64,000 bases of DNA, from the NCBI GenBank assembly GCA_963766105.1, contig CAVXYO010000001.1, positions 10,619 through 74,618 of the forward strand. Direction: 5' to 3'. The DNA is from an uncultured Solirubrobacteraceae bacterium (GTDB taxonomy: Bacteria; Actinomycetota; Thermoleophilia; Solirubrobacterales; Solirubrobacteraceae). A program made the translations under genes and the position numbers. Shown one piece after another: positions 2 to 19,399 of the stretch. The notes beneath the pieces are model-generated. The model saw only the letters and a list, made by a program, of their open reading frames with translations. It was not told where the DNA came from and searched no databases. Within the stretch, counting starts at the first letter, position 1; each line of letters starts with the position of its first letter.

Positions 2-196
2 AGCCAGATCGCCGAGCAGCTGTTCCTCGCCGAGAGCACCGTCAAGAGTCATCTCTCCTCCGCGTTCGGCAAGCTGGGCGTGCGTTCGCGCAACGAGGCC
101 GTGAGCCTGATCCTCGACCCGGATCGAGGTCTCGGCATGGGCATCCTCGGGCTCGGCGGGGAGCGGCTGGACTCGCCGGTGGCGGTCGCGCGATGA
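2..196 (+). CDS. LuxR-family HTH regulator, C-terminal part (5' truncated by window)
   Basis: Frame 2 reads SQIAEQLFLAESTVKSHLSSAFGKLGVRSRNEAV, a LuxR HTH signature. TGA at 194-196 overlaps the next ATG (ATGA). Confidence 0.85.
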   Translation, partial: SQIAEQLFLAESTVKSHLSSAFGKLGVRSRNEAVSLILDPDRGLGMGILGLGGERLDSPVAVAR

Positions 197-1344
197 GCGC
201 TGCCACCGCCGGCGTCCCGCTGACCGTCATGGACCAGCACGATCCGCAGCTGCTCGACGAGCTGCTGACCGCGGTAGGTCGCGTCGCGGCGGCCGGCGCG
301 TTCACCGGCGGTGCCGCGGTGGAGGAGTTCGAGGCCGACTACGCGCGCTGGTGTGGGGCAACCCACGCGGTGGGCGTGGCCTCCGGCACCGAAGCGCTCG
401 TCCTCTCGCTGCGCGCGCTGGGTATCGGCCCCGGCGACGAGGTCGTCGTCCCTGCCAACTCGTTCATCGCGACTGCCGAGGCCGTGAGCCTCGTCGGCGC
501 GCGACCGCGATTCGCCGACGTCGAGCCCGAGACCCAGCTGGTCACCGCCGAGACGATCCAGGCGGCGCTCACCCCCGCGGTGCGGTGTGTGATCCCCGTC
601 CACCTGTTCGGCCGCACGGTCGACATGTACCCGGTCGCCGAGCTCGCGCGCTCGCGCGGGCTGCTGCTCGTCGAGGACGCCGCGCAGGCTCACGGCGCGG
701 TCTACCGCGGCCGCCACGCCGGGACGATCGGCGACGCCGGCACGTTCTCGTTCTACCCGGCCAAGAACCTCGGCGCCTGGGGCGACGGCGGCGCCGTGGT
801 GACGTCGCGCCCGGAGATCGCCGAGCGCGTGCGTCTGCTGCGCTCGCACGGCGAGAGCCCGCGCTACTGCCATCGCATCGTCGGCACCACGGGCAGGCTC
901 GACGCGATTCAAGCGGCGGTCCTGCGCGTCAAGCTTTCGCGGCTGGACGACTGCAACCGCGCGCGGCGTGCAGCAGCCGGTCGCCTGCGCACGGCCCTCG
1001 AGGACATCGAGCAGGTCGCCGCGCCGGCGCCCGTCGATCCCGGCGGCGATCACGTCTACCACCAGTTCGTCATCCGAACGCCCCGGCGCGACGCCGTCCG
1101 TGAGCTGCTCGCTCGCCAGGGAGTTGCCACCGGCGTCCACTACCCGACGCCGATCCATCGCTCCGAGGCCTACGCCGGGATTTGCGAGGGGCACGACGTC
1201 GCGCCGCAGTGCACACGGCTGTCCGGCGAGATCCTCTCCCTGCCGATGTTCCCGGCGATCACCGATGCGCAGATCGAGCGGGTCGCACACGCCGTGAGCG
1301 CCTGCGTCGCAAATGCCGCCGAGCTCGCGCCCGTGGTGGGCTGA
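193..1344 (+). CDS. DegT/DnrJ/EryC1/StrS family PLP-dependent sugar aminotransferase
   Basis: Motifs VASGTEAL, VIPVHLFG, VEDAAQAHGA, FSFYPAKNLGAWGDGG (PLP Lys), LSLPMFP. Confidence 0.95.
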   Translation: MSAATAGVPLTVMDQHDPQLLDELLTAVGRVAAAGAFTGGAAVEEFEADYARWCGATHAVGVASGTEALVLSLRALGIGPGDEVVVPANSFIATAEAVSLVGARPRFADVEPETQLVTAETIQAALTPAVRCVIPVHLFGRTVDMYPVAELARSRGLLLVEDAAQAHGAVYRGRHAGTIGDAGTFSFYPAKNLGAWGDGGAVVTSRPEIAERVRLLRSHGESPRYCHRIVGTTGRLDAIQAAVLRVKLSRLDDCNRARRAAAGRLRTALEDIEQVAAPAPVDPGGDHVYHQFVIRTPRRDAVRELLARQGVATGVHYPTPIHRSEAYAGICEGHDVAPQCTRLSGEILSLPMFPAITDAQIERVAHAVSACVANAAELAPVVG

Positions 1345-1356
1345 TCGGGCGAGGAC

Positions 1357-2041
1357 ATGTCCACGATCGCTTTCGAGGAAGAGCAGAGCGCAGTCCGCCA
1401 GAGGGTGGCGACGCTGGCCGCCTACCGCGCGCTCGATCTGCTGATCGCCTCGCTCGGCCTGCTCGCCGCCCTGCCCGTGCTGGCCGGCGCCTGCGTCGCC
1501 ATCCGCCTGGAACGCGGCGGCCCGGCGATCTTCAGCCAGCGCCGTCTGGGGCTCGGCAAGCGCGCGTTCACGGTCCACAAGTTCCGCACGATGCGCCTGC
1601 AGGCCGACCCGCGTGTCCATCGCGAGTACGTACGCGCGCTGATCGGCGGCAGCGAGAGCACGCACGCCGGGGAGGACGGCCGCGATCTCTACAAGCTGGC
1701 GTCCGACGATCGCGTGACGCGCGTCGGGCGCTTTCTCCGCAAGACGAGCCTCGACGAGCTGCCGCAGCTCTACGACGTGCTCGTCGGGCGAATGTCGATC
1801 GTCGGGCCGCGCCCGGTGATCCCTTACGAGGCCGAGCTGTATCCCGCGAGCTTTCGACCGCCGCTTCGACGTCAAGCCGGGCATGACCGGGCTGTGGCAG
1901 GTCAGCGGGCGCAGCGAACGCACCTACCGCGAGATGATCGCGCTCGACCTCGAGTGGGTGCAGCGGCGCTCGCTGAAGCTCTACCTGTCGATCCTCGTGC
2001 GCACTCCGTGGGTGCTGCTGCTGCGTCGCGGGGTCGCCTAG
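1357..2041 (+). CDS. Priming polyprenyl glycosylphosphotransferase (Bac_transf family), split by an apparent +1 frameshift at ~1852-1854
   Basis: KFRTM, DDRVTRVGRFLRKTSLDELPQL and MSIVGPRP in frame 1. The conserved tail VKPGMTGLWQVSGRS...DLEWV continues in another frame to TAG 2039-2041. Deleting one T of TTT restores the frame. Confidence 0.9.
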
Positions 2042-2165
2042 CGATGTGCCGCCGCCGACCCGCGCGCAAGCCGGCGGCCGATCGCCGCGTTGATCTTGGC
2101 AGTGGCGTCATGCCGAGCACGGCAGGAGCCGCTGCCTACAACGATCGAGCGGAGGCACGAACGAG

Positions 2166-3323
2166 ATGATCACGACGCCGATAGGGGTCGCAGTCGTGGG
2201 CTACGGCTACTGGGGCCCCAACGTCGTGCGCAACATCCTCGAGTGCCCGCAGCTGCGCCTGATGGGGCTCTGCGAGCGCGACCCGGCCCGCGCGGAGGAA
2301 TTCAGCCGTCGCTACCCGGCGAGGGCGGCCGAGCCCGATCTCGACGCGCTGCTGCTCGATCCGCGCGTGCAGGCCGTGTCGATCGCCACGCCGCCGCGCA
2401 CGCACTACGACCTCGTGCGCCGCGCTCTTCAGGCCGGCAAGCACGTGCTCGTCGAGAAGCCGCTGGCAACCAGCGTCGCACAGGCCGAAGAGCTGATCGC
2501 GCTCGCGGCGCAGGTCGACCGCGTGCTGATGCCCGGGCACACGTTCGTCTACAGCCCGCCCGTCAACAAGGTGCGCGAGCTGATTCGCTCGGGCGAGCTC
2601 GGCGACGTCTACTTCGTCACCTCCTCGCGCATGAACCTCGGCCTGTACCAGGCCGACGGAGTGATCAGCGACCTCGCGCCGCACGACCTTTCGATCCTGC
2701 TCTACTGGCTCGGCCGGCCGGTCGTGCAGATTGCCGCCTCCGCGCAGAGCATCTTCCAGAACGGCGTGCCCGAGACGGCCTTCCTGACGGTCACGTTCGC
2801 CGGCGGGACGACCGCCAACGTGCAGATTTCCTGGCTGGCGCCGCGCAAGGTGCGCCAGATGGTCGTCGTCGGCTCCAAGCGCATGGTGCAGTACGAGGAC
2901 ACCTCATCCGACGAGGCCGTGCGCATCTACGACCGCGGTCTCGACGTCTCGCTGGCCGAGGCGCCCGCGACGTTCGGCGAGTACCAGCTGACCTATCGCA
3001 GCGGCGACATCGTCGTACCGCGCATCGAAGCCGCCGAGCCGCTCGGCCTGGAGCTCGCCGACTTCGCCAACGCGATCCGCACCGGCCAGGAGCCGCGCTC
3101 GAACAGCGCACTTGGGCTGGAGATCGTCCGTGCACTCGAGGCCGCCCACCTCTCGATTCAGCGTGCGGGCGATCCGGTCACGCTGGCCGGCGCCGATCGG
3201 CTCGGCGATGTCGCAGGCGAGGGCGACATGTCCGCCCGCATGCGTGTACTGCCGATCGACGGAGCCGCCCTGCCCGGGACGCCCGCGCCTTCGGCCGCAC
3301 CGCCGGCCGTGACCGCTCCCTGA
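2166..3323 (+). CDS. Gfo/Idh/MocA family oxidoreductase (NDP-sugar dehydrogenase-like)
   Basis: VVGYGYWGPN Rossmann motif, GKHVLVEKP, DLAPHD. Confidence 0.93.
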   Translation: MITTPIGVAVVGYGYWGPNVVRNILECPQLRLMGLCERDPARAEEFSRRYPARAAEPDLDALLLDPRVQAVSIATPPRTHYDLVRRALQAGKHVLVEKPLATSVAQAEELIALAAQVDRVLMPGHTFVYSPPVNKVRELIRSGELGDVYFVTSSRMNLGLYQADGVISDLAPHDLSILLYWLGRPVVQIAASAQSIFQNGVPETAFLTVTFAGGTTANVQISWLAPRKVRQMVVVGSKRMVQYEDTSSDEAVRIYDRGLDVSLAEAPATFGEYQLTYRSGDIVVPRIEAAEPLGLELADFANAIRTGQEPRSNSALGLEIVRALEAAHLSIQRAGDPVTLAGADRLGDVAGEGDMSARMRVLPIDGAALPGTPAPSAAPPAVTAP

Positions 3324-3351: not shown

Positions 3352-4968
3352 TCAGCCGCCCGCGTTCCCGCCCAGCGGTGCGTCTGGGAGCGGGACCGCT
3401 GCGGCATTGGCCGCGCGCCTTGCGCGCCACGCTTGGAGCTTTGCGAGCGCTTCGCTGAGGCGGTCGCGATCGCGACCGTTGAGGCCGCCGATCGTCAGGA
3501 ACACGCCGAGGAACGCAACCGTCCCGGCGGCCAGGCTCAGCGGCAGCCCGGCGGCCGTGCCGATGGCGCGCTCCACGCCGTTGGCGGCGGCGAAGCCGCC
3601 GGCATACGCTCCGCCCAGCGCCAGGCGCTCGCGCAACGGCCACGTGGCTCGCAGCGGACGAGCCAGCGAGCGGCGCAGCGCGAGGCCGCTCAGCAGCACG
3701 ACCGCCAGGTAACCGGCGAGGAGCGCGACGGCGGGACCGTCGATGCCGATGCGCGGCGTCAGGATCGCCAGCAGGCCGAGCGTGAGCGCGGTGCGTGCGA
3801 TCGCGATCAGGCTCGTGATGCCGGGCCGGTTGGTCGCCCATAGGGCCTGCGTCTGCGTGACGGTCGCCGAAGCCAGCGCGGGGTACAGCGCCAGCAGCGC
3901 GAGCGCGGTCGTCGCGCGTGCGAAGCCCGGTCCGAAGAGTGCCAGGACCGATCGCGCGGCGCCGCCGATCGTCGCCGCGATCAGCAGCATGCCGATCGCT
4001 TCGTAGCGGATCGAGTCGATCAGCGCGCGGTCGAAGCCGTGGCTGTCGCCGCTGGCGTGCCGCCCGACGAGCGTCGGGTAGAGCACTTCGCTGATCCGCA
4101 TGCTCGCCTGCTGCAGGCGCTGCGGGATCATCTGCGCGCGGCTGTAGGCGCCGACCACGGCAACCGGTGCGAGCGTGCCGAGAACCCAGATCCCGCCCTG
4201 CTGGCTGACGCCCTGCGCGACCTGCCCCGGCGTGGCCTTCAGGCCGAAGCGCAGTAGCTCCGGCAGGACCGCGAGCCCGTGACGGTATTCCCGGCGGCTC
4301 AGGCGAGGCCGCGCGAACGCGCGCGCCGACACGACACGGTGCGCGAGCGCGGTCAGCGAAGCGCCGAGCGTGGCGATCACCAGTCCCCACACCGATCGCC
4401 AGAGCGAGCCGACGACCACTGCGATCGCGATGAAGCTGAGCACTTCGTGCAGGCGCACCCAGAAGATCTGCCGGCCGGCCACGAACGCCGAGAGAATCGA
4501 ATCGAGGTTCCAGGCGGTGTTCGTGATCAGCACGTAACCCGCAATGCTCACGAGCGCCGGCGCGAGCAGCTTCGGTGCGTGCAGCGGACCGCGAAAGACC
4601 AGCCAGCACGCGACTGCGTCGAATATCGCGACCAGCGCCGTGAGGGCGGCCGAGAACGTGAACACCGCTGCGAACAGCTGCGTGACGCGCGGCTCGCGCG
4701 GAGCCAGGCCGGTGATCTCCCTGATCAGCGCCTGCTGCTCTTTGACCGTCGAAAGCACCCACAGGGCGCCGACCGGCGCCGAGACGAGCGCGAACTGCCC
4801 GATAACGCGGACGCCGTACAGGCGCGAAGTGGCGAGCATCGAGAGAATCCCCAGCAGCGTCGCGAGCACGAATCCCAGCCCGCCGAAGAAGAAGCCCGCG
4901 CGATAGCTGCCGCGCTGCGTGCGCGCCTGCTCGCCTGCGGCGATCTCGCTCTGCTCGGGGTTGGCCAT
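3352..4968 (-). CDS. Oligosaccharide flippase (Wzx/MATE-like polysaccharide biosynthesis protein)
   Basis: About 12-14 hydrophobic segments, VVGAYSRA...P motif typical of PST flippases, glycan-locus context. Confidence 0.8.
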   Translation of the reverse strand: MANPEQSEIAAGEQARTQRGSYRAGFFFGGLGFVLATLLGILSMLATSRLYGVRVIGQFALVSAPVGALWVLSTVKEQQALIREITGLAPREPRVTQLFAAVFTFSAALTALVAIFDAVACWLVFRGPLHAPKLLAPALVSIAGYVLITNTAWNLDSILSAFVAGRQIFWVRLHEVLSFIAIAVVVGSLWRSVWGLVIATLGASLTALAHRVVSARAFARPRLSRREYRHGLAVLPELLRFGLKATPGQVAQGVSQQGGIWVLGTLAPVAVVGAYSRAQMIPQRLQQASMRISEVLYPTLVGRHASGDSHGFDRALIDSIRYEAIGMLLIAATIGGAARSVLALFGPGFARATTALALLALYPALASATVTQTQALWATNRPGITSLIAIARTALTLGLLAILTPRIGIDGPAVALLAGYLAVVLLSGLALRRSLARPLRATWPLRERLALGGAYAGGFAAANGVERAIGTAAGLPLSLAAGTVAFLGVFLTIGGLNGRDRDRLSEALAKLQAWRARRAANAAAVPLPDAPLGGNAGG

Positions 4969-5081: not shown

Positions 5082-5945
5082 ATGGCACTACCAACGTTCT
5101 TCATCATCGGCGCGCCCAAGGCCGGCACCACCAGCCTGCATCTCTACCTGGACCGCCATCCGGAGATCCAGATGTCGGCCAACAAGGAGCCGCGTTTCTT
5201 CGCCGGACCGGAGGGCGATGTCCCCTACGCACCCGGCCGTGTGAGCCGGCTGGCCGACTACGAAGCGCTGTTCGACCCGGCGGTTGCGGTGCGCGGCGAG
5301 GCGTCGACTGACTATGCGATCCACCCGCGCCGCCGCGGCGCTCCCGCGCGCATCAAGGAGCTCGTGCCCGGGGCGCGCTTCTTGTATCTCGTTCGCGACC
5401 CCGTCGCGCGCACGATCTCCCACTACAGGATGCGCGCCGCTTTTCTCGGCGAGCGCCGCCCGATCGAGCAGGCGCTGGGCGACTTCACCGACCGCCGCTC
5501 GCCCTACATCTGGCCGAGCCTGTATGCATCGCAGCTGGAGCGCTACTTCGAGCAGTTCTCACAGGAGCGGGTGCTCGTGATCGATCAGGCCGACCTGCTC
5601 GCCGATCGGCGCACGACGCTCAACGAGATCTTCTCGTTCTTGTCCGTAGACGCGGCGGCCGAGTCCCTGCGCGTGGATGAGCAACTCTCCGACAGCAGCG
5701 ACTGGCGCGCCTACTCCCCTGCATATACGAAGCTCGTCGATCGACTGGTCGTTCCCTGCACGCGGTGGGTCCCGCAGCGCCTGCGCCGGGCGACGCGCCG
5801 CGCCGTCGAGGCGCGCATGTGGCCGGCGCTGGAGACGCCGGCGCTCGACGAGCAGCTGCTCGAGCGGCTGAACGAGCTCTACCGCCCGCAGGCCGAACGC
5901 CTGCGCGCGCTGACCGGCAAGGCGTTCTCCAGTTGGGCGGTGTGA
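5082..5945 (+). CDS. Sulfotransferase family protein (paralog 1)
   Basis: 5'-PSB loop IIGAPKAGTTSL, HPEI...KEPRFF, 3'-PB motif RDPVARTISHY. Confidence 0.92.
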   Translation: MALPTFFIIGAPKAGTTSLHLYLDRHPEIQMSANKEPRFFAGPEGDVPYAPGRVSRLADYEALFDPAVAVRGEASTDYAIHPRRRGAPARIKELVPGARFLYLVRDPVARTISHYRMRAAFLGERRPIEQALGDFTDRRSPYIWPSLYASQLERYFEQFSQERVLVIDQADLLADRRTTLNEIFSFLSVDAAAESLRVDEQLSDSSDWRAYSPAYTKLVDRLVVPCTRWVPQRLRRATRRAVEARMWPALETPALDEQLLERLNELYRPQAERLRALTGKAFSSWAV

Positions 5946-7051: not shown

Positions 7052-7914
7052 TGGCGCTGCCGACGTTCTTCATCATCGGCGCGGCGAAGGCCGGCACGAC
7101 GAGCCTTCACTTCTATCTGAGCCTGCATCCGGAGATCCAGATGTCGGCCAACAAGGAGCCCAACTTCTTCGGCGGACCGGAGAACGGCATCCCCTATCCG
7201 CCGCGGCGAGTCGGCCGCCTGCGCGACTACGAAGAGCTGTTCGATCCCAGCTTCGCCGTGCGCGGCGAGGCGTCGGCCGGCTACACCAACCACCCGCGCC
7301 GCCGCGGCGTCCCCGAGCGGATCAAGCAGCTGATACCCGACGCGAAGTTCCTCTACATCGTGCGCGATCCGATCGCACGCACGGTGTCTCATTACCAGGA
7401 CGCGTTTGCGATCGGAAAACAGCGCCGCCCCTTGAACGAGGCGCTCGGCGCGCTCGACGACCCGTACTCGCCACTGACCTGCCACAGCCGCTACGCGACG
7501 CAGCTGGAGCTCTACAGGCAGACCTTCGCGCCGCAGCGGATCATGGTGATCGATCAGGCCGAGCTGCTCTGCGACAGGCGCGCGACGCTGCGTGACGTCT
7601 TTCGCTTTCTCGCCGTCGACGACACGTTCGACACACCGGCGTTCGACGAGCAGCTCTACCGCTCCGAGGATCGGCCGGTCTACTCGGCCGCCTACTGGCA
7701 CTTCGTCGAACGCTTCGTCTCGCCGGCCACCCGGCGAATACCCGCCGCCGTTCGCACGACGGCCCGGCGAGGCCTCGAGCGCGCACTGCTGCCCAGGCTC
7801 GCCGAGCCGACGCTCGACGCCGATCGCCGCGCGGCACTCGAGGAGCTCTACCGCGGCGAGGTCGCTCGCCTGCGCGAGCTGACCGGCAAGCCGTTCTCGA
7901 CGTGGAGCATCTGA
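7051..7914 (+). CDS. Sulfotransferase family protein (paralog 2)
   Basis: MALPTFFIIGAAKAGTTSL, KEPNFF, RDPIARTVSHY. Highly similar to 5082-5945. Confidence 0.92.
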   Translation: MALPTFFIIGAAKAGTTSLHFYLSLHPEIQMSANKEPNFFGGPENGIPYPPRRVGRLRDYEELFDPSFAVRGEASAGYTNHPRRRGVPERIKQLIPDAKFLYIVRDPIARTVSHYQDAFAIGKQRRPLNEALGALDDPYSPLTCHSRYATQLELYRQTFAPQRIMVIDQAELLCDRRATLRDVFRFLAVDDTFDTPAFDEQLYRSEDRPVYSAAYWHFVERFVSPATRRIPAAVRTTARRGLERALLPRLAEPTLDADRRAALEELYRGEVARLRELTGKPFSTWSI

Positions 7915-13709: not shown

Positions 13710-14776
13710 TGGCTGCCGCGTGCGCTGTGCCACGCAGCGGCGAAGGGGCGGCCGTGCGGCGCATCGTCCATCACTTCGGCCCCGACCCCGCCTACGCGGG
13801 CGGGATGGGCAGCGTCATCCGGGTGCTCGGCGAGCACGACGTGGGCGGGCGCAGCGTCGAGAGCCGCCCCACGTGGCGACCGCGCTCGCGCTTGGCGAGC
13901 GTCCCGCTGGCGCTGCGCGCCGCCCTGGCGATCCCGTCCATCGGTCGCGACGAGATCGTGCACGTGCACCTCGCGGAAAACGGCGCGTTCGTGCGCGAGG
14001 GGGCAATCGTCGCGTTCGCGAGACTGCTCGGCCGGGTCACCGTCGTGACGATCCACGGCGCGGACTTCCTGGCGTTCGCGAGCGCACACCGGAGGCTTGC
14101 GGGCAGCGTGCTGCGCCGCGCGCACCTCGTCACGTGCCTGGATGCCGGCGTGCTGGAGGCGGTCCGCTCGCTTGCGCCACGGTCGGGCGTCGAGCTGCTC
14201 GCCAACCCGGTCGCGATGGACGACCGCTCGCCGCCGGCCGACGCGACCGAGGAGCTCGTTCTGTTCGCCGGGGAGATCGGCACGCGCAAGGGTGCGGACG
14301 TGCTCTGCGACGCGTGGCGGCTGGTCAGCGAGTCGCACCCGAACGCTCGCTGCATCATGGTCGGTCCGGTACGCGACTTCGCCGTGCCCGCGCTCGAGCG
14401 CCTGGAGGTACGCAGGCCGGTCGGCGCTCAGGCGATGGCCGAGCTCGTGCGCCGCGCGCGCGTCGTCGCGCTGCCGTCGCGCTCGGAGGGGATGCCGATG
14501 ATCCTGACCGAGGCGATGGCCGCCGGGCGCCCGTTCGTGAGCACCGCGGTCGGCGCGATACCCGCGCTCGCGGGCGAGGGAGGCGGCACGCTCGTGCCGG
14601 TCGGCGACCACGTCGAGCTCGCGCGGTGCCTGGGCGCCTTCCTCGGCGACAGCGCGCTCGCGGCGGCGGCCGGCGAGCGTGGCCGGCGCTGGTGCCGGCA
14701 AACGCGCAGCGTCGAGGTGATCGACGTTCGCCTCGGCGAGCTTTATGCCGACGCGGCGCGGGCGGCGGCGCGATGA
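13709..14776 (+). CDS. Glycosyltransferase family 4
   Basis: FAGEIGTRKG, LPSRSEGMPMILTEAMAAGRPFVST (EX7E motif). Confidence 0.9.
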   Translation: MAAACAVPRSGEGAAVRRIVHHFGPDPAYAGGMGSVIRVLGEHDVGGRSVESRPTWRPRSRLASVPLALRAALAIPSIGRDEIVHVHLAENGAFVREGAIVAFARLLGRVTVVTIHGADFLAFASAHRRLAGSVLRRAHLVTCLDAGVLEAVRSLAPRSGVELLANPVAMDDRSPPADATEELVLFAGEIGTRKGADVLCDAWRLVSESHPNARCIMVGPVRDFAVPALERLEVRRPVGAQAMAELVRRARVVALPSRSEGMPMILTEAMAAGRPFVSTAVGAIPALAGEGGGTLVPVGDHVELARCLGAFLGDSALAAAAGERGRRWCRQTRSVEVIDVRLGELYADAARAAAR

Positions 14777-15966
14777 GCCGCACAGCTTCAGCGGCCGGCT
14801 CGCCCCGCCGGATCGCGCTCGTGCTGTGGAACGGCGACGTGGGCGGCGCCGAGGTGCTGACCGCTTCGCTTGCCAAGCACATGCGCTTGCAAGGCGTCGA
14901 TGCGAGCGTCGTGTTCGTCGGCCGCGGCGAGCCGCTGGCCACACGACTGCGTGACAGTGCCATCCCGTACCGCGCTCTCGGCTTCGCGCGCGGGCGCGAG
15001 ATCCTCCGCCACCCCCGCGCCTACGCGGCGGCGGTCGCGCGCGCCGGGCGCGACGGAGCGGTGCTCGTCGAGAGCGGGTTCATGGGCGCGGCGTTGCGCG
15101 CGGGCGGCTACGGCGCCACGATCGTCGCCGCCGAGCACGGCGCGATCCTCGAGCTGCCCGGATACCGGCGGCGGCGGCGAGCGTCGTGGTGGCTCTCGCG
15201 ACTGGGCGGCGCGTGGGCCGACGACGTCGAGGTGGCAGTGTCGGACTTCATCCTGCAGCGCATGCAGCGCCACCCTCACGCTTCCCGCGCACTGTGCATC
15301 TACAACGGCATCGACACGCAGCGGTTCTCCACAGCCGAGCCGGGCGATCCCCCCCGCGCGCGGGAAGGCGAGTGCGTGGTGGGATTCGCCGGCCGGCTCA
15401 TTCACGGCAAGGGGCACGACCACCTGATCCAGGCGCTGGCTCGTGCGAGGTCCTCGCGGCCGCTGCACGTGCGGATCGCCGGGGAAGGACCGCAGCGAGC
15501 GCGCCTACGAGCGCTCGCGCGCTCGCTGCGCGTCGAGGATCGCGTCGAGCTCGTGGGCCTGACGCACGACATGCCGGCCTTCTGGCGCAGCGTCGACGTC
15601 GCCGTCGTCCCGTCGGCCGAGTTCACCGAGGCGTGCCCGATGACACCGCTGGAGGCGATGGCGGCCGGCAAGCCGGTCGTCGCGACGCGCAACGGCGGCC
15701 TCCCCGAGATCGTCCTCGACGGCGTGACCGGGCGGCTCGTCGCGCCGGGCGACCCGCAGGCGCTCGCACAAGCGCTCGTGCATTACGCCGAGAACGAGCA
15801 GTCGGCCGCGCGTCACGGCGCGGCCGGCCGCACGCGAATCGAGCAGTGCTTCGACATCGGGCGCTGCGCCCGCGCGTATCTGGACCTGCTCGGCCACGAG
15901 GCCGGACAGGGCGTGTCGGCGAAGGTCAGCGCTCCGGCCCGTCAAGCCACGGGATCTCTCGGTTGA
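14773..15966 (+). CDS. Glycosyltransferase family 4
   Basis: IYNGID, FAGRLIHGKG, PSAEFTEACPMTPLEAMAAGKPVVAT..GG.PEIV.DG.TG. Confidence 0.92.
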   Translation: MSRTASAAGSPRRIALVLWNGDVGGAEVLTASLAKHMRLQGVDASVVFVGRGEPLATRLRDSAIPYRALGFARGREILRHPRAYAAAVARAGRDGAVLVESGFMGAALRAGGYGATIVAAEHGAILELPGYRRRRRASWWLSRLGGAWADDVEVAVSDFILQRMQRHPHASRALCIYNGIDTQRFSTAEPGDPPRAREGECVVGFAGRLIHGKGHDHLIQALARARSSRPLHVRIAGEGPQRARLRALARSLRVEDRVELVGLTHDMPAFWRSVDVAVVPSAEFTEACPMTPLEAMAAGKPVVATRNGGLPEIVLDGVTGRLVAPGDPQALAQALVHYAENEQSAARHGAAGRTRIEQCFDIGRCARAYLDLLGHEAGQGVSAKVSAPARQATGSLG

Positions 15967-18499
15967 GCATCGCGGCGAGCGCTTCGCCGTCCGGGCGGAA
16001 GTGCTCGCGAAGCTTCGCGAAGGCCGCCTCGGGAACGTCGTCGGGAGCTTCGCCGCGCCGCGCGTTCCACATTTCCACGCGGTAGTTCGCCACGTTGTAG
16101 GAGCGGTCCAGCGTGGCCCGCACGCCGCCCGGCAGGGCGTGCCAGAGGCCACGAACGGCGGTCGTCTGCGCGAGCCGTTCCTGCCAGGTGACGAGGTTGA
16201 GCCCGGGTATCCGCTGCTCGACCGCCGCAGCGCGATAGCGCGTGTCGATGTTCGGCGGCACGAAATCCGCGTCGACGCCGATGAAGCGAAAGACGCCGGC
16301 GAGCGTCTCGGCCGGGCGGTCGCGCAGCTCCTCGGAGAAGAGCACCTCGAGCTGCTCGTCTGCGAAGACGCGCAGGAACCCGCCGAGCAGGCGCGCGTAT
16401 TCGCCGTTGACGACGTATCCGTTAACTCTGGTGCGCACCAGGCGTGCCTGCTCGAGCGCCGCCGGCTCGATCAGCTCGTCGACCGCCTGCTCGAAGGAGC
16501 GCGACTCCACTTTGCCGAGCGCCATCATCCGGTAGTGCGAGTACGCGCGCTCGACGGGGTCGCGCAGGACGCACAGCAGCCTGACGCCGGGAAACGCCTC
16601 GCGAATGCGGCGGGGTATCTCCTCCTCCAGAGCTGTTCTGTCAGGCGAGGCGAGGCCCAGGCGCGCCTCGGAACCGACGTCGCGGTAGGGGACGCCGCTC
16701 ATGTACTCGGTCGTCGCCTCGCCCCACACCGTGCCGGGCGCGGCATCTCGCGAGACGGTCTGCAGATACCAGTCGACCCCGCGACGGTAGTTGCGATCGA
16801 TGTTGAAGAAGTAGAGCTCCTTCTCGGCGGGCAGGTGCAGCTGGGGATGTACGCGCATGTACTCGAACAGCGAGGTGGTGCCCGCCTTCGGCGCGCCGAC
16901 GATCAGAAAGCCCAGGCCGTCGCGCGCGGGCGGCCGCGGAGCAGCGATTTCGGGCGCGGCGCCGGCGGCGCCCCCGCCCCCGCTGCCGGCGTGCGCGTAC
17001 GTCGCCGTCAGGACATTCGCTCCGGCGCGCGCCCGGGCGGGGGCAGGCATGGCGCCGAGCGCGACGCCGGCCCAGCTCCACAGCAGCAGCAGCGAGAAGG
17101 CCTGTTCGTGGGGGTCGACGAATGCGACGACCAGGTAGAAGACCGCGAGCGCCAGCAGCGAGAGTTTCCACATCGGCAGGTCGCCCGAGGCCGGCGAGAG
17201 GATCGCGCCGCCGACGCCGCAGAGCAGCACGGCGAGCCAGAGCAGCGCGCCGACCAGCCCCAGTTCGACGGCGAAGGCCAGGTAGGTGTTGTGCAGCGGC
17301 AGCGGCGGCACGGCTGTCCCCACGGCTTCGCTGAGCACGTAGCCGTTCTGTGGGTAGCCGGCCGACTGGCGGAAGTAGGCGAGGCTGTCGCGCTTGTAGC
17401 GTTCCCAGCCGAAGCCTACGAGCGGCCGGGCGGCGACCATGCGCAGCCCGGCGGATGTCTGGTTCTGACGCGCCCACACGCTGTTCTCGTTGTTCACGCG
17501 GTTGGAGGTTTTGTGCGAGAGCGCCGGCGACAGCAGCAGCGCCCCGCCGATCGCCAGCGCGCACGCGACCGCCGCGGGCACGAGCAGCCGGCGCCCGCGG
17601 CGGGTAGCCAGGGCGGCGGCGGCGGTGGCGAGGATCGCGGCGATCCACACCCCGCGCTCGAGCGTGACGAAGCAGCCGAAGACGCACACGACAGCGACGA
17701 TCCCCGCCAACACGCGCGCGCCGCGTCGTCGCCAGTGCGTGAGCGCGATCGCGGCGGCGACCGCGCATGCGTACGTCGCGAACCCCTCCACGACCGAGCT
17801 CTGAAAGGGGCCGCCCGCGCGTTCGTCGGGCAGTTCGGCGTCGACTCGGACGATGTAGTGGGGGAACACCAGGCCGTGCGGGCCGAGCGACTCGAAGATC
17901 GCCGTCAGCCCGAGGTAGCCGCCGAGCGCGACGAGCGTCACGAGCAAGAGCTCGCGCTCGCGCTCGCCCGAGAACACCGCGGGCGCCAGCAGGAAGGCGA
18001 GGTAGGGCGCGACGCCGAACATGTCGACGAGGGGCAGGAAGCCGCTCTGCAGCGTCCCGGAGGCGGCCGCCGACACCAGGACGTAGATCACCGCCAGCGC
18101 CATCAGCAGGTGCACGTTGCCGATGCGCAGGCGCGGCGAGTGCGCGACGCCGGGCGCGCGCAGCAGGAACTGCAACAGCACGACGAGCAGCAGCAGCCGG
18201 TCCAGGGGCAGGCCTCCGAGCCCGATCTGAAACCACGCCCCCGAGAAGATCGAGAGGACGATCGCGGCGCACATGTTGACCGCAGGGTTCAGCTCCCACA
18301 ACCGCCGCACGAGCAGTATGCCCAGGCAGATGCAGATCGGCGTGACGATCAGCCAGTGCCCGCGAAGGCGCTGTGGCGCCGCCGCGTAGACGAGCAGCAG
18401 CGCGGGTATCGCCAGCGCGGCCCAGGCCCGCCCGGGGGGACGCCACACGGCGCGTGGGGGCGCTTGCAAGCCGTACGCCGCGAGCGCTTGCGCCCTCAA
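15926..18499 (-). CDS. O-antigen ligase/Wzy polymerase-family membrane protein fused to a C-terminal sulfotransferase
   Basis: N-terminal ~480 aa multi-TM region with ERGVWIA, M...P.VGFG and HNTYL..AVELG.VG. Ala/Gly/Pro linker. Then FLIVGAPKAGTTSL, KELYFF, RDPVERAYSHY. Confidence 0.82.
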   Translation of the reverse strand: MRAQALAAYGLQAPPRAVWRPPGRAWAALAIPALLLVYAAAPQRLRGHWLIVTPICICLGILLVRRLWELNPAVNMCAAIVLSIFSGAWFQIGLGGLPLDRLLLLVVLLQFLLRAPGVAHSPRLRIGNVHLLMALAVIYVLVSAAASGTLQSGFLPLVDMFGVAPYLAFLLAPAVFSGERERELLLVTLVALGGYLGLTAIFESLGPHGLVFPHYIVRVDAELPDERAGGPFQSSVVEGFATYACAVAAAIALTHWRRRGARVLAGIVAVVCVFGCFVTLERGVWIAAILATAAAALATRRGRRLLVPAAVACALAIGGALLLSPALSHKTSNRVNNENSVWARQNQTSAGLRMVAARPLVGFGWERYKRDSLAYFRQSAGYPQNGYVLSEAVGTAVPPLPLHNTYLAFAVELGLVGALLWLAVLLCGVGGAILSPASGDLPMWKLSLLALAVFYLVVAFVDPHEQAFSLLLLWSWAGVALGAMPAPARARAGANVLTATYAHAGSGGGGAAGAAPEIAAPRPPARDGLGFLIVGAPKAGTTSLFEYMRVHPQLHLPAEKELYFFNIDRNYRRGVDWYLQTVSRDAAPGTVWGEATTEYMSGVPYRDVGSEARLGLASPDRTALEEEIPRRIREAFPGVRLLCVLRDPVERAYSHYRMMALGKVESRSFEQAVDELIEPAALEQARLVRTRVNGYVVNGEYARLLGGFLRVFADEQLEVLFSEELRDRPAETLAGVFRFIGVDADFVPPNIDTRYRAAAVEQRIPGLNLVTWQERLAQTTAVRGLWHALPGGVRATLDRSYNVANYRVEMWNARRGEAPDDVPEAAFAKLREHFRPDGEALAAMLNREIPWLDGPER

Positions 18500-18514
18500 G
18501 CTTGCGCCCTCAAG
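18487..18514. repeat. 14-bp tandem direct repeat at a gene junction
   Basis: CTTGCGCCCTCAAG twice (18487-18500 and 18501-18514), between the Wzz-like stop and the ligase TTG start. Confidence 0.85.
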
Positions 18515-19399
18515 CTAACCGGTGGGTTCGCGCCTGACGGTGCGCCGCGCAAGCGCGAGCGCGACCAGGCAGCCGATCACGACGCCGACGAGCAGGCCGA
18601 TCAGCGCGAACTTCTGCACCTTGGCGCTGTGATCGCTGCTCGCGCTCTGGGCGCCGGCGAGCAGCGAGACGAGCCCGCTGCTCGGACCGCGCGTGGAGAT
18701 TGCGCTCGTGTACGCGACGCCGATCGCCCGCAGCTTGACCGAGGCCGCGTTCTTCTGCGCTTCGGCGGCCGCGAGCGCGGGCGAGTACCCGCGCTTGTGA
18801 CGGCTCGCGCGCGCGACTTCGGCAACGGTGCGTCGCAGCGCAATCGATGCGTCGCGGTATTCGTGCAGCAGCGATTCGGCCTGCGGGTTGGTGCTGTTGC
18901 TGTGCCCCTCGTAGGCGATCAGCGCAGCAGACGCGGTATTGGCGAGCTGGACGGCCGCGAGTTCGCTCGGTCCGGTGGCAATCACGCGAAATGCCGGGCT
19001 GGTGGGGATCGGTGAGGAGGAGAGGCGCCCGGCTGCGTCGCGCGGCGGTACGCGCAGCTTGTCCTGCACCGCGGCGAGCACCGGTTCGGCGTCGATCGCC
19101 CGGCTGAACGCGGTCGCCAGCGAGGCGGCGGACTGCACGTAGCCGAAGAAGCCCGGCGAGTTCGGGTTCACCTGCCCGACCTGAAGCGTCGCCGAGGCCG
19201 TGTAGGTGGCCGGCCTCGAAAGGCCGTACGCACCGCCCGCGAGCGCGAGCAGGAGCGCGCACAGCCCGACGATCCACCTGTGGCGGACGATCGCGCCGTA
19301 GGCGAAGCTGTCGGGCGGCTCGAAGATCCCGTGAATCGCATGCTCGCGCCCGTTGGTGGCCGCCGTGGGCGACTCGGCGCTTCTGGGGGCGGTGATCAT
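18515..19399 (-). CDS. Wzz/chain-length-determinant-like polysaccharide co-polymerase
   Basis: ATG 19399 with GAGGA RBS. N-terminal TM followed by P.YTASATL.V, a helical periplasmic region and a C-terminal TM with G...G. No kinase domain. Confidence 0.7.
   Translation of the reverse strand: MITAPRSAESPTAATNGREHAIHGIFEPPDSFAYGAIVRHRWIVGLCALLLALAGGAYGLSRPATYTASATLQVGQVNPNSPGFFGYVQSAASLATAFSRAIDAEPVLAAVQDKLRVPPRDAAGRLSSSPIPTSPAFRVIATGPSELAAVQLANTASAALIAYEGHSNSTNPQAESLLHEYRDASIALRRTVAEVARASRHKRGYSPALAAAEAQKNAASVKLRAIGVAYTSAISTRGPSSGLVSLLAGAQSASSDHSAKVQKFALIGLLVGVVIGCLVALALARRTVRREPTG

What the first reader, a model, noticed from the sequence alone, without database searches (positions are those of the whole stretch)
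193..19399. Candidate biosynthetic locus for a sulfated, amidated surface polysaccharide in a soil-type actinobacterium
Seen in sequence: a Wzx/Wzy/Wzz-type skeleton (priming transferase, flippase, ligase/polymerase, Wzz-like, GTs) together with three PAPS-dependent sulfotransferase domains, an AsnB amidotransferase, a CE4-like deacetylase and a nucleotidyltransferase. Established: bacterial sulfated exopolysaccharides are best known from cyanobacteria and marine bacteria, and AsnB-like enzymes amidate uronic acids in O-antigen clusters. Inference: the product is a heavily tailored (N-/O-sulfated, amidated, partly deacetylated) glycosaminoglycan-like polymer. I know of no characterised example from this lineage.
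Basis: partly seen in the sequence, partly recalled or inferred. Interest (0 to 1): 0.72.

Follow-up and report, generated by a model that had tools for sequence, protein, structure and literature searches.

The report
Sulfated surface-glycan gene cluster, Solirubrobacteraceae
This stretch is a real gene cluster for building a sugar polymer on a lipid carrier and very probably decorating it with sulfate; it is a soil-actinobacterial version of a system already known from cyanobacteria and marine bacteria, so it is interesting but not a new kind of biology.

Summary
Window 193-19,468 carries 15 tightly packed genes. They encode a priming phosphoglycosyl transferase, a Wzx flippase, a Wzy_C polymerase/ligase-type protein, Wzz and three glycosyltransferases. 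There is also a C-3 amino-sugar pair (Gfo/Idh/MocA plus DegT), an AsnB amidotransferase with an intact glutaminase domain, a PF14907 nucleotidyltransferase-fold protein and a CE4-like protein recognisable only by fold. Three sulfotransferase domains are present, all with intact PAPS-binding motifs, and one is fused to Wzy_C.

The core is conserved across many Solirubrobacteraceae metagenome genomes. In one relative, cysN and an APS kinase lie about 5 kb from it. Homologous sulfotransferases are fused to Wzy_C in a second lineage and to an ABC-exporter ATPase in Paenibacillus. This ties them to glycan assembly rather than to small molecules.

Caveats:
- The priming transferase carries a 1-nt insertion (T run, 1852-1854) that two relatives lack. 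It is probably an assembly error.
- No PAPS genes lie in the window.
- N-sulfation, uronic-acid amidation and "glycosaminoglycan-like" remain inference.
- A sister genome has a lasso-peptide cluster directly upstream.

Verdict: a new member of a known kind. A similar actinomycete prediction was published in 2026.

The parts
2..196 (+). C-terminal end of a LuxR/GerE-type regulator. Its stop overlaps the G1 start (ATGA). This is the likely left border of the locus.
   Evidence: Frame +2 reads ...ESTVKSHLSSAFGKLGVRSRNEAV...*. The sister genome L017 has a 217-aa GerE protein in the same position with the same 4-nt overlap.
193..1344 (+). G1, DegT/DnrJ/EryC1 PLP aminotransferase, probably a sugar C-3 aminotransferase.
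   Evidence: PF01041, 364 bits. The named enzymes among the best PDB matches are the C-3 aminotransferases DesV-type 2oga, QdtB and WbpE.
1357..2041 (+). G2, small polyprenyl-phosphate phosphoglycosyl transferase (priming enzyme). It is interrupted by a 1-nt insertion in the T run at 1852-1854.
   Evidence: The GC3 frame switches near 1850. A soil-metagenome contig lacks one base at 1852. Sister genome L017 has an intact 227-aa ORF with one base fewer.
2166..3323 (+). G3, Gfo/Idh/MocA NAD-dependent sugar dehydrogenase, the likely 3-dehydrogenase partner of G1.
   Evidence: PF01408, 109 bits. The best NCBIfam match is UDP-GlcNAc 3-dehydrogenase, 158 bits, below its cut-off of 450.
3352..4968 (-). 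G4, Wzx-type MOP flippase.
   Evidence: PF01943 and PF13440. Crude hydropathy shows many hydrophobic segments. It is about 70% identical in relatives L014-L016.
5082..5945 (+). G5, PAPS-type sulfotransferase.
   Evidence: PF13469 and PF00685. Motifs PKAGTTS, KEPRFF and RDPVARTISHY align to the catalytic motifs of 3-OST-3.
5951..7051 (+). G6, conserved secreted protein or lipoprotein of unknown function, from an orphan family.
   Evidence: No Pfam, NCBIfam or PDB match. More than 2000 homologues, all annotated hypothetical. G18 and C19 are nearly invariant after a hydrophobic N-terminus. AF2 pLDDT is 75 with no Foldseek match.
7051..7914 (+). G7, PAPS-type sulfotransferase, a paralogue of G5.
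   Evidence: PF13469 and PF00685. It is 57% identical to G5 over all 287 residues.
7918..9099 (+). G8, PF14907 nucleotidyltransferase-fold protein, cytoplasmic, substrate unknown.
   Evidence: PF14907, 97 bits. No predicted TM segment. It is 53-60% identical in L007 and L014-L016, always inside the glycan locus.
9101..10051 (+). G9, fused PssD/PssE (Alg14/Alg13-like, GT28-related) glycosyltransferase.
   Evidence: PF04101. NCBIfam matches are WelK-like at 113 bits, PssE and PssD, all below their cut-offs.
10056..11738 (+). G10, cytoplasmic three-domain protein: a GATase1-like N-domain without a catalytic triad, a CE4-like barrel and a beta-sandwich. It is a putative de-N-acetylase or esterase.
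   Evidence: No sequence-model match. AF2 pLDDT is 84. Foldseek finds PelA, ArnD, 3rxz and CE4 esterases, E 5e-8 to 1e-3. Invariant residues are D211, D212, H271, H275, P317, P318, H402 and H403; R313 and H319 are nearly invariant.
11793..13709 (+). G11, AsnB-type glutamine-dependent amidotransferase.
   Evidence: PF00733, 285 bits, and PF13537, 146 bits; the N-terminus is MCGICG. TIGR01536 scores 447, above its cut-off of 267; TIGR03108 scores 466, below 817; the lasso-cyclase model scores 194, below 525.
13709..14776 (+). G12, GT4 glycosyltransferase.
   Evidence: PF13692 and PF00534. It is 67-85% identical in L001, L002 and L005.
14773..15966 (+). G13, GT4 glycosyltransferase.
   Evidence: PF13692, PF00534 and PF13439. 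It is conserved in L001, L002 and L005.
17030..18499 (-). G14, N-terminal part: a Wzy_C-family polytopic membrane domain (polymerase or ligase).
   Evidence: PF04932, 60 bits. About 13 hydrophobic segments, with a 91-residue loop followed by three further segments. About 390 homologues, 58-76% identical among the best 120.
15926..16915 (-). G14, C-terminal part: a sulfotransferase domain fused to Wzy_C through an Ala/Gly/Pro-rich linker.
   Evidence: PF00685 and PF13469 at residues 531-744. The same fusion occurs in the sister genome (P0002/L001, same frame) and in a 39%-identical protein, P0419. It is a separate overlapping gene in L002-L005.
18515..19468 (-). G15, Wzz-type chain-length determinant with 2 TM segments. 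The true start is probably M24, at 19399.
   Evidence: PF02706, 36 bits. TM segments at residues 59-77 and 288-306. Homologue alignments begin at residue 24.
19640..20977 (+). G16, SARP/BTAD transcriptional activator, divergent from G15 and syntenic in relatives.
   Evidence: PF03704 and PF00486. It is 65% identical and in the same position in L002.
21324..22010 (-). G17, ECF sigma factor, syntenic with the locus in L002.
   Evidence: Sigma70_r2 and Sigma70_r4_2. It is 73% identical in L002.

Best explanation
The locus encodes a Wzx/Wzy-dependent pathway for a sulfated heteroglycan of the cell envelope or surface.

Inferred sequence of steps:
1. G3, a 3-dehydrogenase, and G1, a C-3 aminotransferase, make a 3-amino sugar nucleotide.
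2. The small phosphoglycosyl transferase G2 primes a polyprenyl phosphate.
3. The cytoplasmic glycosyltransferases G9, G12 and G13 complete a repeat unit.
4. The lipid-linked unit is tailored while still on the cytoplasmic face. The PAPS-dependent sulfotransferases G5, G7 and the C-terminal domain of G14 act here. The CE4-like G10 probably de-N-acetylates it and the AsnB-type G11 probably amidates a carboxyl group. The PF14907 protein G8 may add a further substituent.
5. Wzx (G4) flips the unit across the membrane.
6. The Wzy_C domain of G14, with Wzz (G15), polymerises or ligates it outside the membrane, where the lipoprotein G6 may also act.

Fusing one sulfotransferase to the cytoplasmic C-terminus of Wzy_C keeps sulfation physically beside the assembly machine.

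Shown: domain identities, intact catalytic motifs, gene order, the fusion and the synteny. Inferred: the order of steps, every substrate, and that the product actually carries sulfate.
For: - All components of a Wzx/Wzy pathway pass Pfam thresholds.
- G5 to G13 are separated by -4 to +5 nt, apart from one 54-nt gap, so they look like a single operon.
- The sulfotransferase domains keep the 5'-PSB motif (PKAGTTS or AKAGTTS), the Glu of KE(P/L)xFF aligned to the catalytic Glu of 3-OST-3, and the 3'-PB motif (RDPxxRxxSHY). After the uncharacterised bacterial enzyme 3RNL, their best solved relatives are heparan-sulfate 3-OST and NDST sulfotransferase domains.
- The Wzy_C-sulfotransferase fusion is present in two independent assemblies with different linkers and in a 39%-identical protein. 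In L002-L005 the sulfotransferase is the next gene after Wzy_C; in L002-L004 the called genes overlap it by 4 nt.
- The same Wzy_C family is also found fused to GT4 and to Wzx.
- A Paenibacillus homologue of the sulfotransferase is fused to an ABC-exporter ATPase, next to a glycosyltransferase, an acyltransferase-ABC-2 permease fusion and an APS kinase.
- Relative L014 has cysN (TIGR02034, 481 bits, cut-off 336) and an APS kinase about 5 kb from the sulfotransferase/Wzx/Wzz/Wzy core.
- Three hydrophobic segments follow the large loop of G14, which places the sulfotransferase domain in the cytoplasm where PAPS is available (crude hydropathy only).
- G10 has a CE4-like fold and invariant DD / HxxxH / PP / HH residues, with R313 and H319 nearly invariant.
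- Among its best solved matches, G1 groups with the sugar C-3 aminotransferases DesV, QdtB and WbpE.
Against: - There is no chemistry. Nothing here shows that any polymer is made or that it is sulfated.
- No PAPS-synthesis genes lie in the 64-kb window, and the rest of the genome could not be reached.
- The priming transferase is out of frame as assembled.
- The cluster has no UDP-sugar 6-dehydrogenase, so the uronic acid that the AsnB would amidate is hypothetical.
- The AsnB also fits a housekeeping asparagine synthase model.
- Polymerase and ligase roles of Wzy_C cannot be told apart from sequence.
- Sulfotransferase, PF14907 nucleotidyltransferase and HPr-kinase homologues are also a known accessory set of lasso-peptide clusters (PMC8498205). 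Such a lasso cluster adjoins the homologous locus in L017 and L002.
Confidence: 0.6

Rival explanations
1. The locus is genuine but dead in this organism. The 1-nt insertion in the priming transferase G2 is a real mutation, so no lipid-linked repeat unit is started unless another priming enzyme substitutes.
For: G2 is split into two frames at 1852-1854. A roughly 95%-identical soil contig and the sister genome L017 are both in frame there.
Against: The extra base sits in a homopolymer (TTT). A second single-base frameshift splits the penicillin-amidase gene near 29,390. Two indels in about 55 genes, with every other cluster gene intact and GC3 strongly coding on both sides of the shift, fit an indel-prone assembly better than decay.
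Confidence: 0.25
2. The glycan is not a free exopolysaccharide. It is either a short glycan or a polymer that the Wzy_C protein ligates to a fixed acceptor (a protein, an S-layer or the cell wall), as in PglL/WsaB-type O-oligosaccharyltransferase or WaaL-type ligase systems. The sulfotransferases would still act on the lipid-linked glycan.
For: Wzy_C, Wzx and Wzz are unusually conserved (52-76% identity) across genomes whose glycosyltransferase and modification genes differ. True O-antigen polymerases are normally very divergent (general knowledge). The locus has only one Wzy_C protein and no OPX, tyrosine-kinase or LCP gene.
Against: A Wzz chain-length determinant sits directly beside Wzy_C in an apparent two-gene operon, which implies polymerisation. 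No acceptor protein is evident.
Confidence: 0.2
3. Some of the tailoring genes (sulfotransferases G5 and G7, the PF14907 protein G8, perhaps the AsnB-like G11) serve the neighbouring lasso-peptide pathway rather than the glycan.
For: Lasso clusters with an HPr-kinase homologue, a putative sulfotransferase and a nucleotidyltransferase are documented, and the pseudomycoidin nucleotidyltransferase glycosylates a phospho-serine (PMC8498205). In L017 a lasso leader peptide (NF033521, 25 bits, cut-off 19), a cyclase-like Asn_synthase and an HPrK-like gene lie immediately upstream of the LuxR-DegT start of the locus. In L002 the B1, B2, HPrK-like and ABC genes adjoin the AsnB end.
Against: The cluster part of the window (1-22 kb) has no PqqD or B2 gene among its ORFs and no intergenic space to hold one. 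G11 has a complete glutaminase domain and scores 194 against a 525 cut-off on the lasso-cyclase model. G8 and a G5/G7-type sulfotransferase sit beside Wzy_C in L014-L016, where no lasso gene is seen within 10 kb. G5, G7 and G8 lie inside the G5-G13 operon together with the glycosyltransferases.
Confidence: 0.08
4. The sulfotransferases act on a glycolipid or small molecule, as the mycobacterial Stf enzymes and rhizobial NodH do, and merely sit in a glycan locus.
For: Pfam PF00685 and PF13469 do not discriminate between acceptor types. The best solved match, 3RNL, has no known substrate.
Against: The sulfotransferases are physically fused to Wzy_C and to an ABC-exporter ATPase. They are conserved next to Wzy_C. 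The nearest enzymes of known function are glycosaminoglycan sulfotransferases.
Confidence: 0.05

Closest known systems
Synechan (xss) cluster of Synechocystis sp. PCC 6803 (PMC8205485)
   Same: It is a Wzx/Wzy/PCP-dependent heteropolysaccharide cluster with several glycosyltransferases, two PAPS-type sulfotransferases (PF00685/PF13469 types) and dedicated regulators. The sulfate content of the product was measured.
   Different: It comes from a cyanobacterium with an outer membrane and an OPX exporter. Its sulfotransferases are stand-alone. It has no AsnB, no CE4-like protein, no PF14907 protein and no amino-sugar pair. Here one sulfotransferase is fused to Wzy_C and the product is unknown.
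wps-1 cluster of Actinoplanes missouriensis (PMC13390465, 2026)
   Same: It is an actinomycete Wzx/Wzy/Wzz cluster with two sulfotransferases, one of the heparan-sulfate-sulfotransferase type. It is predicted, not yet shown, to make a sulfated polysaccharide.
   Different: It belongs to a different class (Actinomycetes rather than Thermoleophilia). It has a different accessory set (GH26, methyltransferase, kinase). No Wzy fusion is reported. Genetic phenotypes in sporangium formation exist there and none exist here. I did not compare sequences.
Sulfated capsular polysaccharide clusters of marine Gammaproteobacteria (Vibrio sp. KMM 8419, PMC11641403; Cobetia marina KMM 1449, PMC11766843)
   Same: According to their titles and abstracts, these papers report sulfated bacterial capsular polysaccharides whose structures were solved by NMR, together with their biosynthetic gene clusters or genomic context. 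I did not read the full papers.
   Different: They are Gram-negative marine hosts. No sequence comparison was made here.
Animal heparan-sulfate 3-O-sulfotransferases and the NDST sulfotransferase domain (PDB 1t8t, 3bd9, 1nst, 8ccy)
   Same: They share the fold family and catalytic motifs, and they are the nearest solved enzymes of known function (E 1e-10 to 1e-15). Pairing a metal-dependent de-N-acetylase-like protein (G10) with such sulfotransferases recalls NDST logic.
   Different: The similarity is low and covers only part of each chain. The animal enzymes act in the Golgi lumen on a finished polymer, not on a lipid-linked unit. N-sulfation here is only a hypothesis.
WbpB/WbpE-type 3-dehydrogenase and 3-aminotransferase pairs, and WbpS-type AsnB amidotransferases, of Pseudomonas aeruginosa O-antigen loci (general knowledge)
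   Same: A Gfo/Idh/MocA dehydrogenase sits beside a DegT aminotransferase. WbpE is among the best PDB matches of G1. An AsnB homologue lies inside a glycan locus.
   Different: This locus has no WbpA-type 6-dehydrogenase, no WbpD-type acetyltransferase and no 2-epimerase. G3 is below the cut-off of the UDP-GlcNAc 3-dehydrogenase model.
Kinase, nucleotidyltransferase and sulfotransferase-bearing lasso-peptide clusters (paeninodin and pseudomycoidin type; PMC8498205)
   Same: They share accessory families: a sulfotransferase, a nucleotidyltransferase (PF14907 here; the family of the lasso enzyme was not checked) and an Asn_synthase-fold enzyme. A lasso cluster adjoins the homologous locus in L017 and L002.
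   Different: The cluster part of the window has no precursor, B1 or B2 gene. G11 is a complete AsnB, not a cyclase. The accessory genes are embedded among glycosyltransferases.

Membership tests
Wzx/Wzy-dependent glycan assembly pathway | Polyprenyl-phosphate phosphoglycosyl transferase (priming enzyme) | tested here: inconclusive
The gene as assembled carries a +1 frameshift at 1852-1854.
Wzx/Wzy-dependent glycan assembly pathway | MOP-family Wzx flippase | tested here: met
   G4 matches PF01943 at 39 bits against a cut-off of 28.2, and is a polytopic membrane protein.
Wzx/Wzy-dependent glycan assembly pathway | Wzy polymerase | tested here: inconclusive
   G14 has a Wzy_C domain at 60 bits against a cut-off of 31.7. 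That family also contains WaaL ligases and O-oligosaccharyltransferases, and sequence alone cannot decide between them.
Wzx/Wzy-dependent glycan assembly pathway | Polysaccharide co-polymerase (Wzz) | tested here: met
   G15 matches PF02706 at 36 bits against a cut-off of 25.5. It has two TM segments flanking an extracytoplasmic domain of about 210 residues.
Wzx/Wzy-dependent glycan assembly pathway | A polymer of repeat units is produced | not testable with these tools
   This needs chemistry on a culture.
PAPS-dependent carbohydrate sulfotransferases (heparan-sulfate 3-OST / NST-like) | 5'-phosphosulfate-binding loop (PKxGTT), 3'-phosphate-binding motif (RDPxxR..S) and catalytic base Glu | tested here: met
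   All three domains have (P/A)KAGTTS, KE(P/L)xFF and RDPxxRxxSHY. The alignment shown (G5 against 3-OST-3A1) places the Lys, Glu and Ser on the enzyme's motifs; G7 and the G14 domain carry the same motifs by inspection of their sequences.
PAPS-dependent carbohydrate sulfotransferases (heparan-sulfate 3-OST / NST-like) | PAPS supply (ATP sulfurylase plus APS kinase) in the same genome | not testable with these tools
   None is found in the 64-kb window and the source contig could not be retrieved. In relative L014, cysN and an APS kinase adjoin the homologous core. In Paenibacillus L010 an APS kinase follows the sulfotransferase fusion.
PAPS-dependent carbohydrate sulfotransferases (heparan-sulfate 3-OST / NST-like) | A carbohydrate acceptor | not testable with these tools
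   The only evidence is context: the fusions to Wzy_C and to an ABC-exporter ATPase, and the operon shared with glycosyltransferases.
Carbohydrate esterase family 4 (NodB-type deacetylases) | Match to the NodB / Polysacc_deac_1 sequence model | tested here: not met
   G10 has no Pfam, NCBIfam or PDB-sequence hit, even with a 42-sequence profile.
Carbohydrate esterase family 4 (NodB-type deacetylases) | Distorted (beta/alpha) barrel fold with Asp-His-His metal site and catalytic Asp/His motifs | tested here: inconclusive
   The AF2 model has pLDDT 84. Foldseek hits PelA, ArnD, 3rxz and CE4 esterases with target TM-scores of 0.55-0.62. D211, D212, H271, H275, P317, P318, H402 and H403 are invariant, and R313 and H319 nearly invariant, in 42 homologues. 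I did not check the residue geometry in the model.
AsnB-type glutamine-dependent amidotransferase | N-terminal nucleophile Cys2, class-II glutaminase domain and Asn_synthase ATP-pyrophosphatase domain | tested here: met
   G11 starts MCGICG. GATase_7 scores 146 bits, Asn_synthase 285 bits and TIGR01536 447 bits against a cut-off of 267.
AsnB-type glutamine-dependent amidotransferase | Acts on a glycan carboxyl group (WbpS or EPS-amidotransferase type) | tested here: inconclusive
   TIGR03108 scores 466 bits, below its cut-off of 817. The GT4-GT4-AsnB order is conserved at 75-91% identity in L001, L002 and L005. No uronic-acid-forming gene lies in the locus.
Lasso-peptide biosynthetic cluster | Precursor peptide, B1 (PqqD) and B2 (transglutaminase-like) proteins, and a lasso cyclase | tested here: not met
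   No PqqD or Transglut_core3 match among the ORFs of 1-22 kb. G11 scores 194 against a cut-off of 525 on NF033535. These genes do exist beside the homologous locus in L017 and L002, which lies outside the window.
Glycosaminoglycan-type polymer | GAG synthase (HAS, KfiA/KfiC or PmHS type) and UDP-sugar 6-dehydrogenase giving an amino-sugar/uronic-acid backbone | tested here: not met
   No such domains are found in the locus. Only G9 resembles a glucuronosyltransferase, and only weakly (WelK, 113 bits against a cut-off of 400).

The most novel reading that the evidence does not exclude
Solirubrobacteraceae, which are abundant soil actinobacteria, may share a conserved envelope glycopolymer that is N-sulfated by a bacterial counterpart of the animal NDST logic. 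In this reading a cytoplasmic CE4-like de-N-acetylase (the G10 family, more than 1300 members and absent from Pfam) exposes an amine on the lipid-linked repeat unit, or the free 3-amino group made by G1 and G3 is used. Heparan-type sulfotransferases, one tethered to Wzy_C, then sulfate it before flipping. The orphan lipoprotein G6 and the PF14907 protein G8 would be further lineage-specific parts of the machine, possibly linked functionally to the adjoining lasso-peptide genes.
Probability: 0.15. Interest if true: 0.8.

Novelty: new member of a known kind. Interest (0 to 1): 0.45.

Why it matters
Sulfated polysaccharides are usually treated as a speciality of animals, algae, cyanobacteria and a few marine bacteria. 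This locus and its many relatives suggest that sulfated surface glycans are common in Solirubrobacteraceae, a widespread and little-cultured group of soil Actinomycetota.

If chemistry confirms it, three things follow:
- It would add a terrestrial Gram-positive source of sulfated glycans and of polysaccharide sulfotransferases, which are wanted as biocatalysts.
- It would provide a natural Wzy-sulfotransferase fusion for studying how tailoring is coupled to assembly.
- It would give a first functional context to three large uncharacterised protein families: the G6 family, the G10 family and PF14907.

As it stands it is a well-supported annotation, not a discovery of a new mechanism.

Tried and rejected
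1. I tried to retrieve the window's own contig, to see the upstream DNA and look for cysDNC. Exact-protein look-ups with G1, G11 and G14 all failed. I used the sister genome L017 as a proxy instead.
2. I searched for sequencing runs of this organism to check the frameshift. Only soil or sediment metagenomes holding 6-18% of the sampled words were found, so only contigs from relatives could be laid on the region.
3. G10 and G6 found nothing by sequence against Pfam, NCBIfam or PDB, even as profiles. The G6 model found no fold match either, so its function stays unknown.
4. The sigma-70 promoter and intrinsic-terminator scans gave no more than chance.
5. I suspected a further frameshift in 48.2-49.8 kb and rejected it. 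That region holds two adjacent ABC-2 permease-like ORFs.
6. I considered whether the Wzy-sulfotransferase fusion is an indel artefact and rejected it. The sister assembly has the same in-frame fusion with a different linker, and a 39%-identical fusion exists elsewhere.
7. I considered whether G11 is a lasso cyclase and rejected it.
8. I considered whether the Firmicutes sulfotransferase hits from the genome scan were the lasso-associated sulfotransferases. In the one locus examined (L010) the context is an ABC-transporter-type glycan locus with an APS kinase, not a lasso cluster.
9. Literature searches for Solirubrobacter sulfotransferases and for PF14907 gave nothing relevant.

Full report
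**1. Gene map**

The window is about 70% G+C, so the mechanical ORF list is full of shadow ORFs. I chose frames by third-position GC, which is 0.87-0.91 in the frames accepted.

This gives 15 genes between 193 and 19,468. A regulator gene sits on the left and two on the right. G5 to G13 are separated by -4 to +5 nt, apart from one 54-nt gap, and look like one operon. G1-G3 form a second unit. Wzx (G4) is divergent from G5. Wzz and Wzy_C-ST (G15, G14) form a two-gene unit on the minus strand.

The first 196 nt of the window hold the C-terminus of a LuxR/GerE-type regulator. Its stop overlaps the G1 start codon (ATGA). The locus therefore starts essentially at the window edge and is not badly truncated.

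**2. Check of the observation**

Pfam and NCBIfam confirm the whole inventory.

| Gene | Coordinates | Identity |
|---|---|---|
| G1 | 193-1344 | DegT aminotransferase |
| G2 | 1357-2041 | Bac_transf priming transferase |
| G3 | 2166-3323 | Gfo/Idh/MocA dehydrogenase |
| G4 | 3352-4968(-) | Polysacc_synt flippase (Wzx) |
| G5, G7 | 5082-5945, 7051-7914 | sulfotransferases, 57% identical paralogues |
| G8 | 7918-9099 | PF14907 NTase-fold protein |
| G9 | 9101-10051 | fused PssD/PssE-type glycosyltransferase |
| G11 | 11793-13709 | AsnB with glutaminase domain and Cys2 |
| G12, G13 | 13709-14776, 14773-15966 | GT4 glycosyltransferases |
| G14 | 15926-18499(-) | Wzy_C plus sulfotransferase, one 857-aa protein |
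| G15 | 18515-19399/19468(-) | Wzz |

G6 and G10 match no sequence family. No cysD, cysN, cysC or other PAPS gene is present anywhere in the 64 kb.

**3. The frameshift in the priming transferase**

The coding frame of G2 switches near 1850. Frame 1 reads ...VGPRPVIPYEAELYPASF. Frame 2 continues DRRFDVKPGMTGLWQV... to a stop at 2039-2041. The joined sequence matches Bac_transf end to end at 192 bits.

Two independent relatives are in frame at this point:
- A soil-metagenome contig about 95% identical lacks one base at 1852.
- The sister genome GCA_037025425.1 (L017) has an intact 227-aa gene with one base fewer at exactly this spot, GAGCTAT-GACC against the window's GAGCTTTCGACC.

The extra base lies in a T run. 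A second single-base frameshift splits the penicillin-amidase gene near 29,390. I therefore think an assembly indel is more likely than a true pseudogene, roughly 3 to 1, but this cannot be settled without the reads.

**4. The sulfotransferases**

All three domains keep the PAPS-binding and catalytic motifs. Their best solved match is an uncharacterised bacterial sulfotransferase (3RNL). After that come heparan-sulfate 3-O-sulfotransferases and the NDST sulfotransferase domain, which are carbohydrate sulfotransferases.

The G14 fusion is real:
- The sister genome has the same in-frame fusion at 86% identity with a different linker.
- A search of 1.8 billion representative proteins found another Wzy_C-sulfotransferase fusion at 39% identity (P0419).
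- The same search also found Wzy_C-GT4 and Wzx-Wzy_C fusions in this Wzy_C family.

In most of the roughly 390 other homologues Wzy_C is about 500 aa. In the relatives examined (L002-L005) the sulfotransferase is the next gene, overlapping Wzy_C by 4 nt in L002-L004. In L016 a G5/G7-type sulfotransferase holds that position instead. In L014 and L015 a methyltransferase does.

A 30%-identical homologue in Paenibacillus is fused to the ATPase of an ABC-2 exporter. It sits beside a GT8, an acyltransferase-permease fusion, a second sulfotransferase-containing protein and an APS kinase. Repeated physical fusion to glycan assembly and export proteins is the strongest argument that the acceptor is the glycan.

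Crude hydropathy places three hydrophobic segments after the large Wzy_C loop. That would put the sulfotransferase domain in the cytoplasm, where PAPS is.

**5. PAPS supply**

This cannot be tested for this genome. In relative L014 (Wzy_C 60% identical, on a 3.7-Mb contig) cysN (TIGR02034, 481 bits against a cut-off of 336) and an APS kinase lie about 5 kb from the sulfotransferase/Wzx/Wzz/Wzy_C core.

**6. The other tailoring genes**

- **G10.** It belongs to a family of more than 1300 hypothetical proteins with no Pfam model. The AF2 model (pLDDT 84) shows an N-terminal GATase1-like domain, a central barrel and a C-terminal beta-sandwich. Foldseek hits PelA, ArnD, a mycobacterial putative polysaccharide deacetylase and several CE4 enzymes. 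D211, D212, H271, H275, P317, P318, H402 and H403 are invariant, and R313 and H319 nearly invariant, reproducing the CE4 motif pattern. The N-domain has no invariant Cys or His. There is no signal peptide or TM segment, so it would act in the cytoplasm.
- **G1 and G3.** Among its best solved matches, G1 groups with the C-3 aminotransferases DesV-type 2oga, QdtB and WbpE. G3 is nearest the UDP-GlcNAc 3-dehydrogenase model, though below its cut-off. A 3-amino sugar is therefore likely.
- **G11.** It is a complete AsnB. Its conserved position after the two GT4 genes argues for a role in the glycan. No uronic-acid-forming enzyme is in the locus, so 'amidated uronic acid' is unproven.
- **G8.** It is an NTase-fold protein of unknown substrate, not a sugar-activating enzyme.
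- **G6.** It is a conserved lipoprotein-like protein from a family of more than 2000 members, with no detectable relative of known fold.

**7. Distribution**

All close homologues come from Solirubrobacteraceae or Solirubrobacterales metagenome genomes and from soil metagenomes.

The scaffold is 52-70% identical in genomes whose glycosyltransferases, sugar-precursor genes and modifying enzymes differ:

| Component | Identity across relatives |
|---|---|
| Wzx | about 70% |
| Wzz | 52-57% |
| Wzy_C | about 60% |
| G6 | 55-61% |
| PF14907 (G8) | about 53% |

Such conservation of Wzx and Wzy is unusual for O-antigen or capsule loci (general knowledge). It suggests a lineage-wide envelope polymer with variable decoration rather than a strain-specific slime. 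The SARP regulator and the ECF sigma factor to the right are syntenic in L002.

**8. Lasso-peptide neighbour**

In L017 an HPrK-like gene, a cyclase-like Asn_synthase and a 59-aa ORF with a lasso leader domain (25 bits against a cut-off of 19) lie directly upstream of the LuxR regulator. In L002, B1, B2 (75 bits against a cut-off of 33), an HPrK-like gene and ABC genes adjoin the AsnB end.

Kinase, nucleotidyltransferase and sulfotransferase genes are known accessories of some lasso clusters (PMC8498205). I therefore keep a small-probability rival in which G5, G7 and G8 serve the peptide. Three things argue against it:
- The cluster part of the window has no lasso core genes.
- G11 is not a cyclase.
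- G8 and the sulfotransferases sit beside Wzy_C in loci without lasso genes nearby.

**9. Comparison with the known, and verdict**

The working principle is Wzx/Wzy assembly with cytoplasmic PAPS-dependent sulfation. This is the principle of synechan in Synechocystis, where sulfate was measured (PMC8205485). Sulfated capsules with sequenced clusters exist in marine Gammaproteobacteria (PMC11641403, PMC11766843). A Wzx/Wzy cluster with two sulfotransferases was reported in the actinomycete Actinoplanes missouriensis in 2026, with the chemistry still pending (PMC13390465).

The present locus is therefore a new member of a known kind. It has four noteworthy particulars: the Wzy_C-sulfotransferase fusion, three sulfotransferase domains, a divergent CE4-like protein, and two large orphan families embedded in a lineage-wide scaffold.

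Noticed in passing
window 27473-30452 (+): A penicillin-amidase (Ntn-hydrolase) gene is split into two overlapping ORFs by a single-base indel near 29,390-29,400. Pfam positions 1-335 fall in one ORF and 324-602 in the other. It is the second frameshift in the window and hints at an indel-prone assembly.
   Followed up: partly
L017 2-3054 (sister genome GCA_037025425.1), immediately upstream of the LuxR-DegT start of the homologous locus: A lasso-peptide cluster: an HPrK-like kinase, a cyclase-like Asn_synthase called as 153-aa and 481-aa pieces, and a 59-aa ORF with a lasso leader domain (NF033521, 25 bits against a cut-off of 19). The same genes probably lie just outside the left edge of the window.
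   Followed up: partly
L002/L003 16788-21533; L005 21491-22396: In other relatives, lasso B1 (PqqD), B2, an HPrK-like gene and ABC-transporter genes adjoin the opposite (AsnB) end of the glycan locus. L005 has a second AsnB-like gene there. The recurrent adjacency of lasso and glycan loci in different arrangements is unexplained.
   Followed up: partly
L014 1-1508: cysN (TIGR02034, 481 bits) and an APS kinase gene lie about 5 kb from the sulfotransferase/Wzx/Wzz/Wzy_C core of a relative on a 3.7-Mb contig.
   Followed up: yes
L010 2913-11266 (Paenibacillus sp.): An ABC-transporter-type glycan locus. The exporter ATPase is fused to a TPR and a sulfotransferase domain (614 aa). The ABC-2 permease is fused to an Acyl_transf_3 domain. 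A 1023-aa protein starts with a sulfotransferase domain, and an APS kinase follows. It looks like an unexplored sulfated glycan system in Firmicutes.
   Followed up: partly
window 5951-7051 (+) and homologues: The G6 family has more than 2000 members and a lipoprotein-like N-terminus. It has no Pfam model and no PDB fold match at pLDDT 75. Two paralogues per locus are found in L015 and L016.
   Followed up: partly
window 62410-63876 (-): A 488-aa protein with a C-terminal CAP12/Pycsar-type TIR effector domain (PF10137, 65 bits). It is possibly an anti-phage defence gene.
   Followed up: no
window 22205-26029 (-) and 30344-35608 (+): Two very large secreted S8 subtilases (1274 aa; the second lies in a 1754-codon open frame) flank a PucR-type regulator and the split amidase gene.
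   Followed up: no
window 37253-41035 (-): An FTR1-type permease, an imelysin-cupredoxin protein and a second FTR1 permease. This is an EfeUO-like iron-uptake set.
   Followed up: no
P0402, P0475, P0479 (representative proteins): The Wzy_C family of G14 also occurs fused to Wzx (1009 aa) and to GT4 glycosyltransferases (867-917 aa). Several 800-1000-aa members carry extra regions with no Pfam match.
   Followed up: partly
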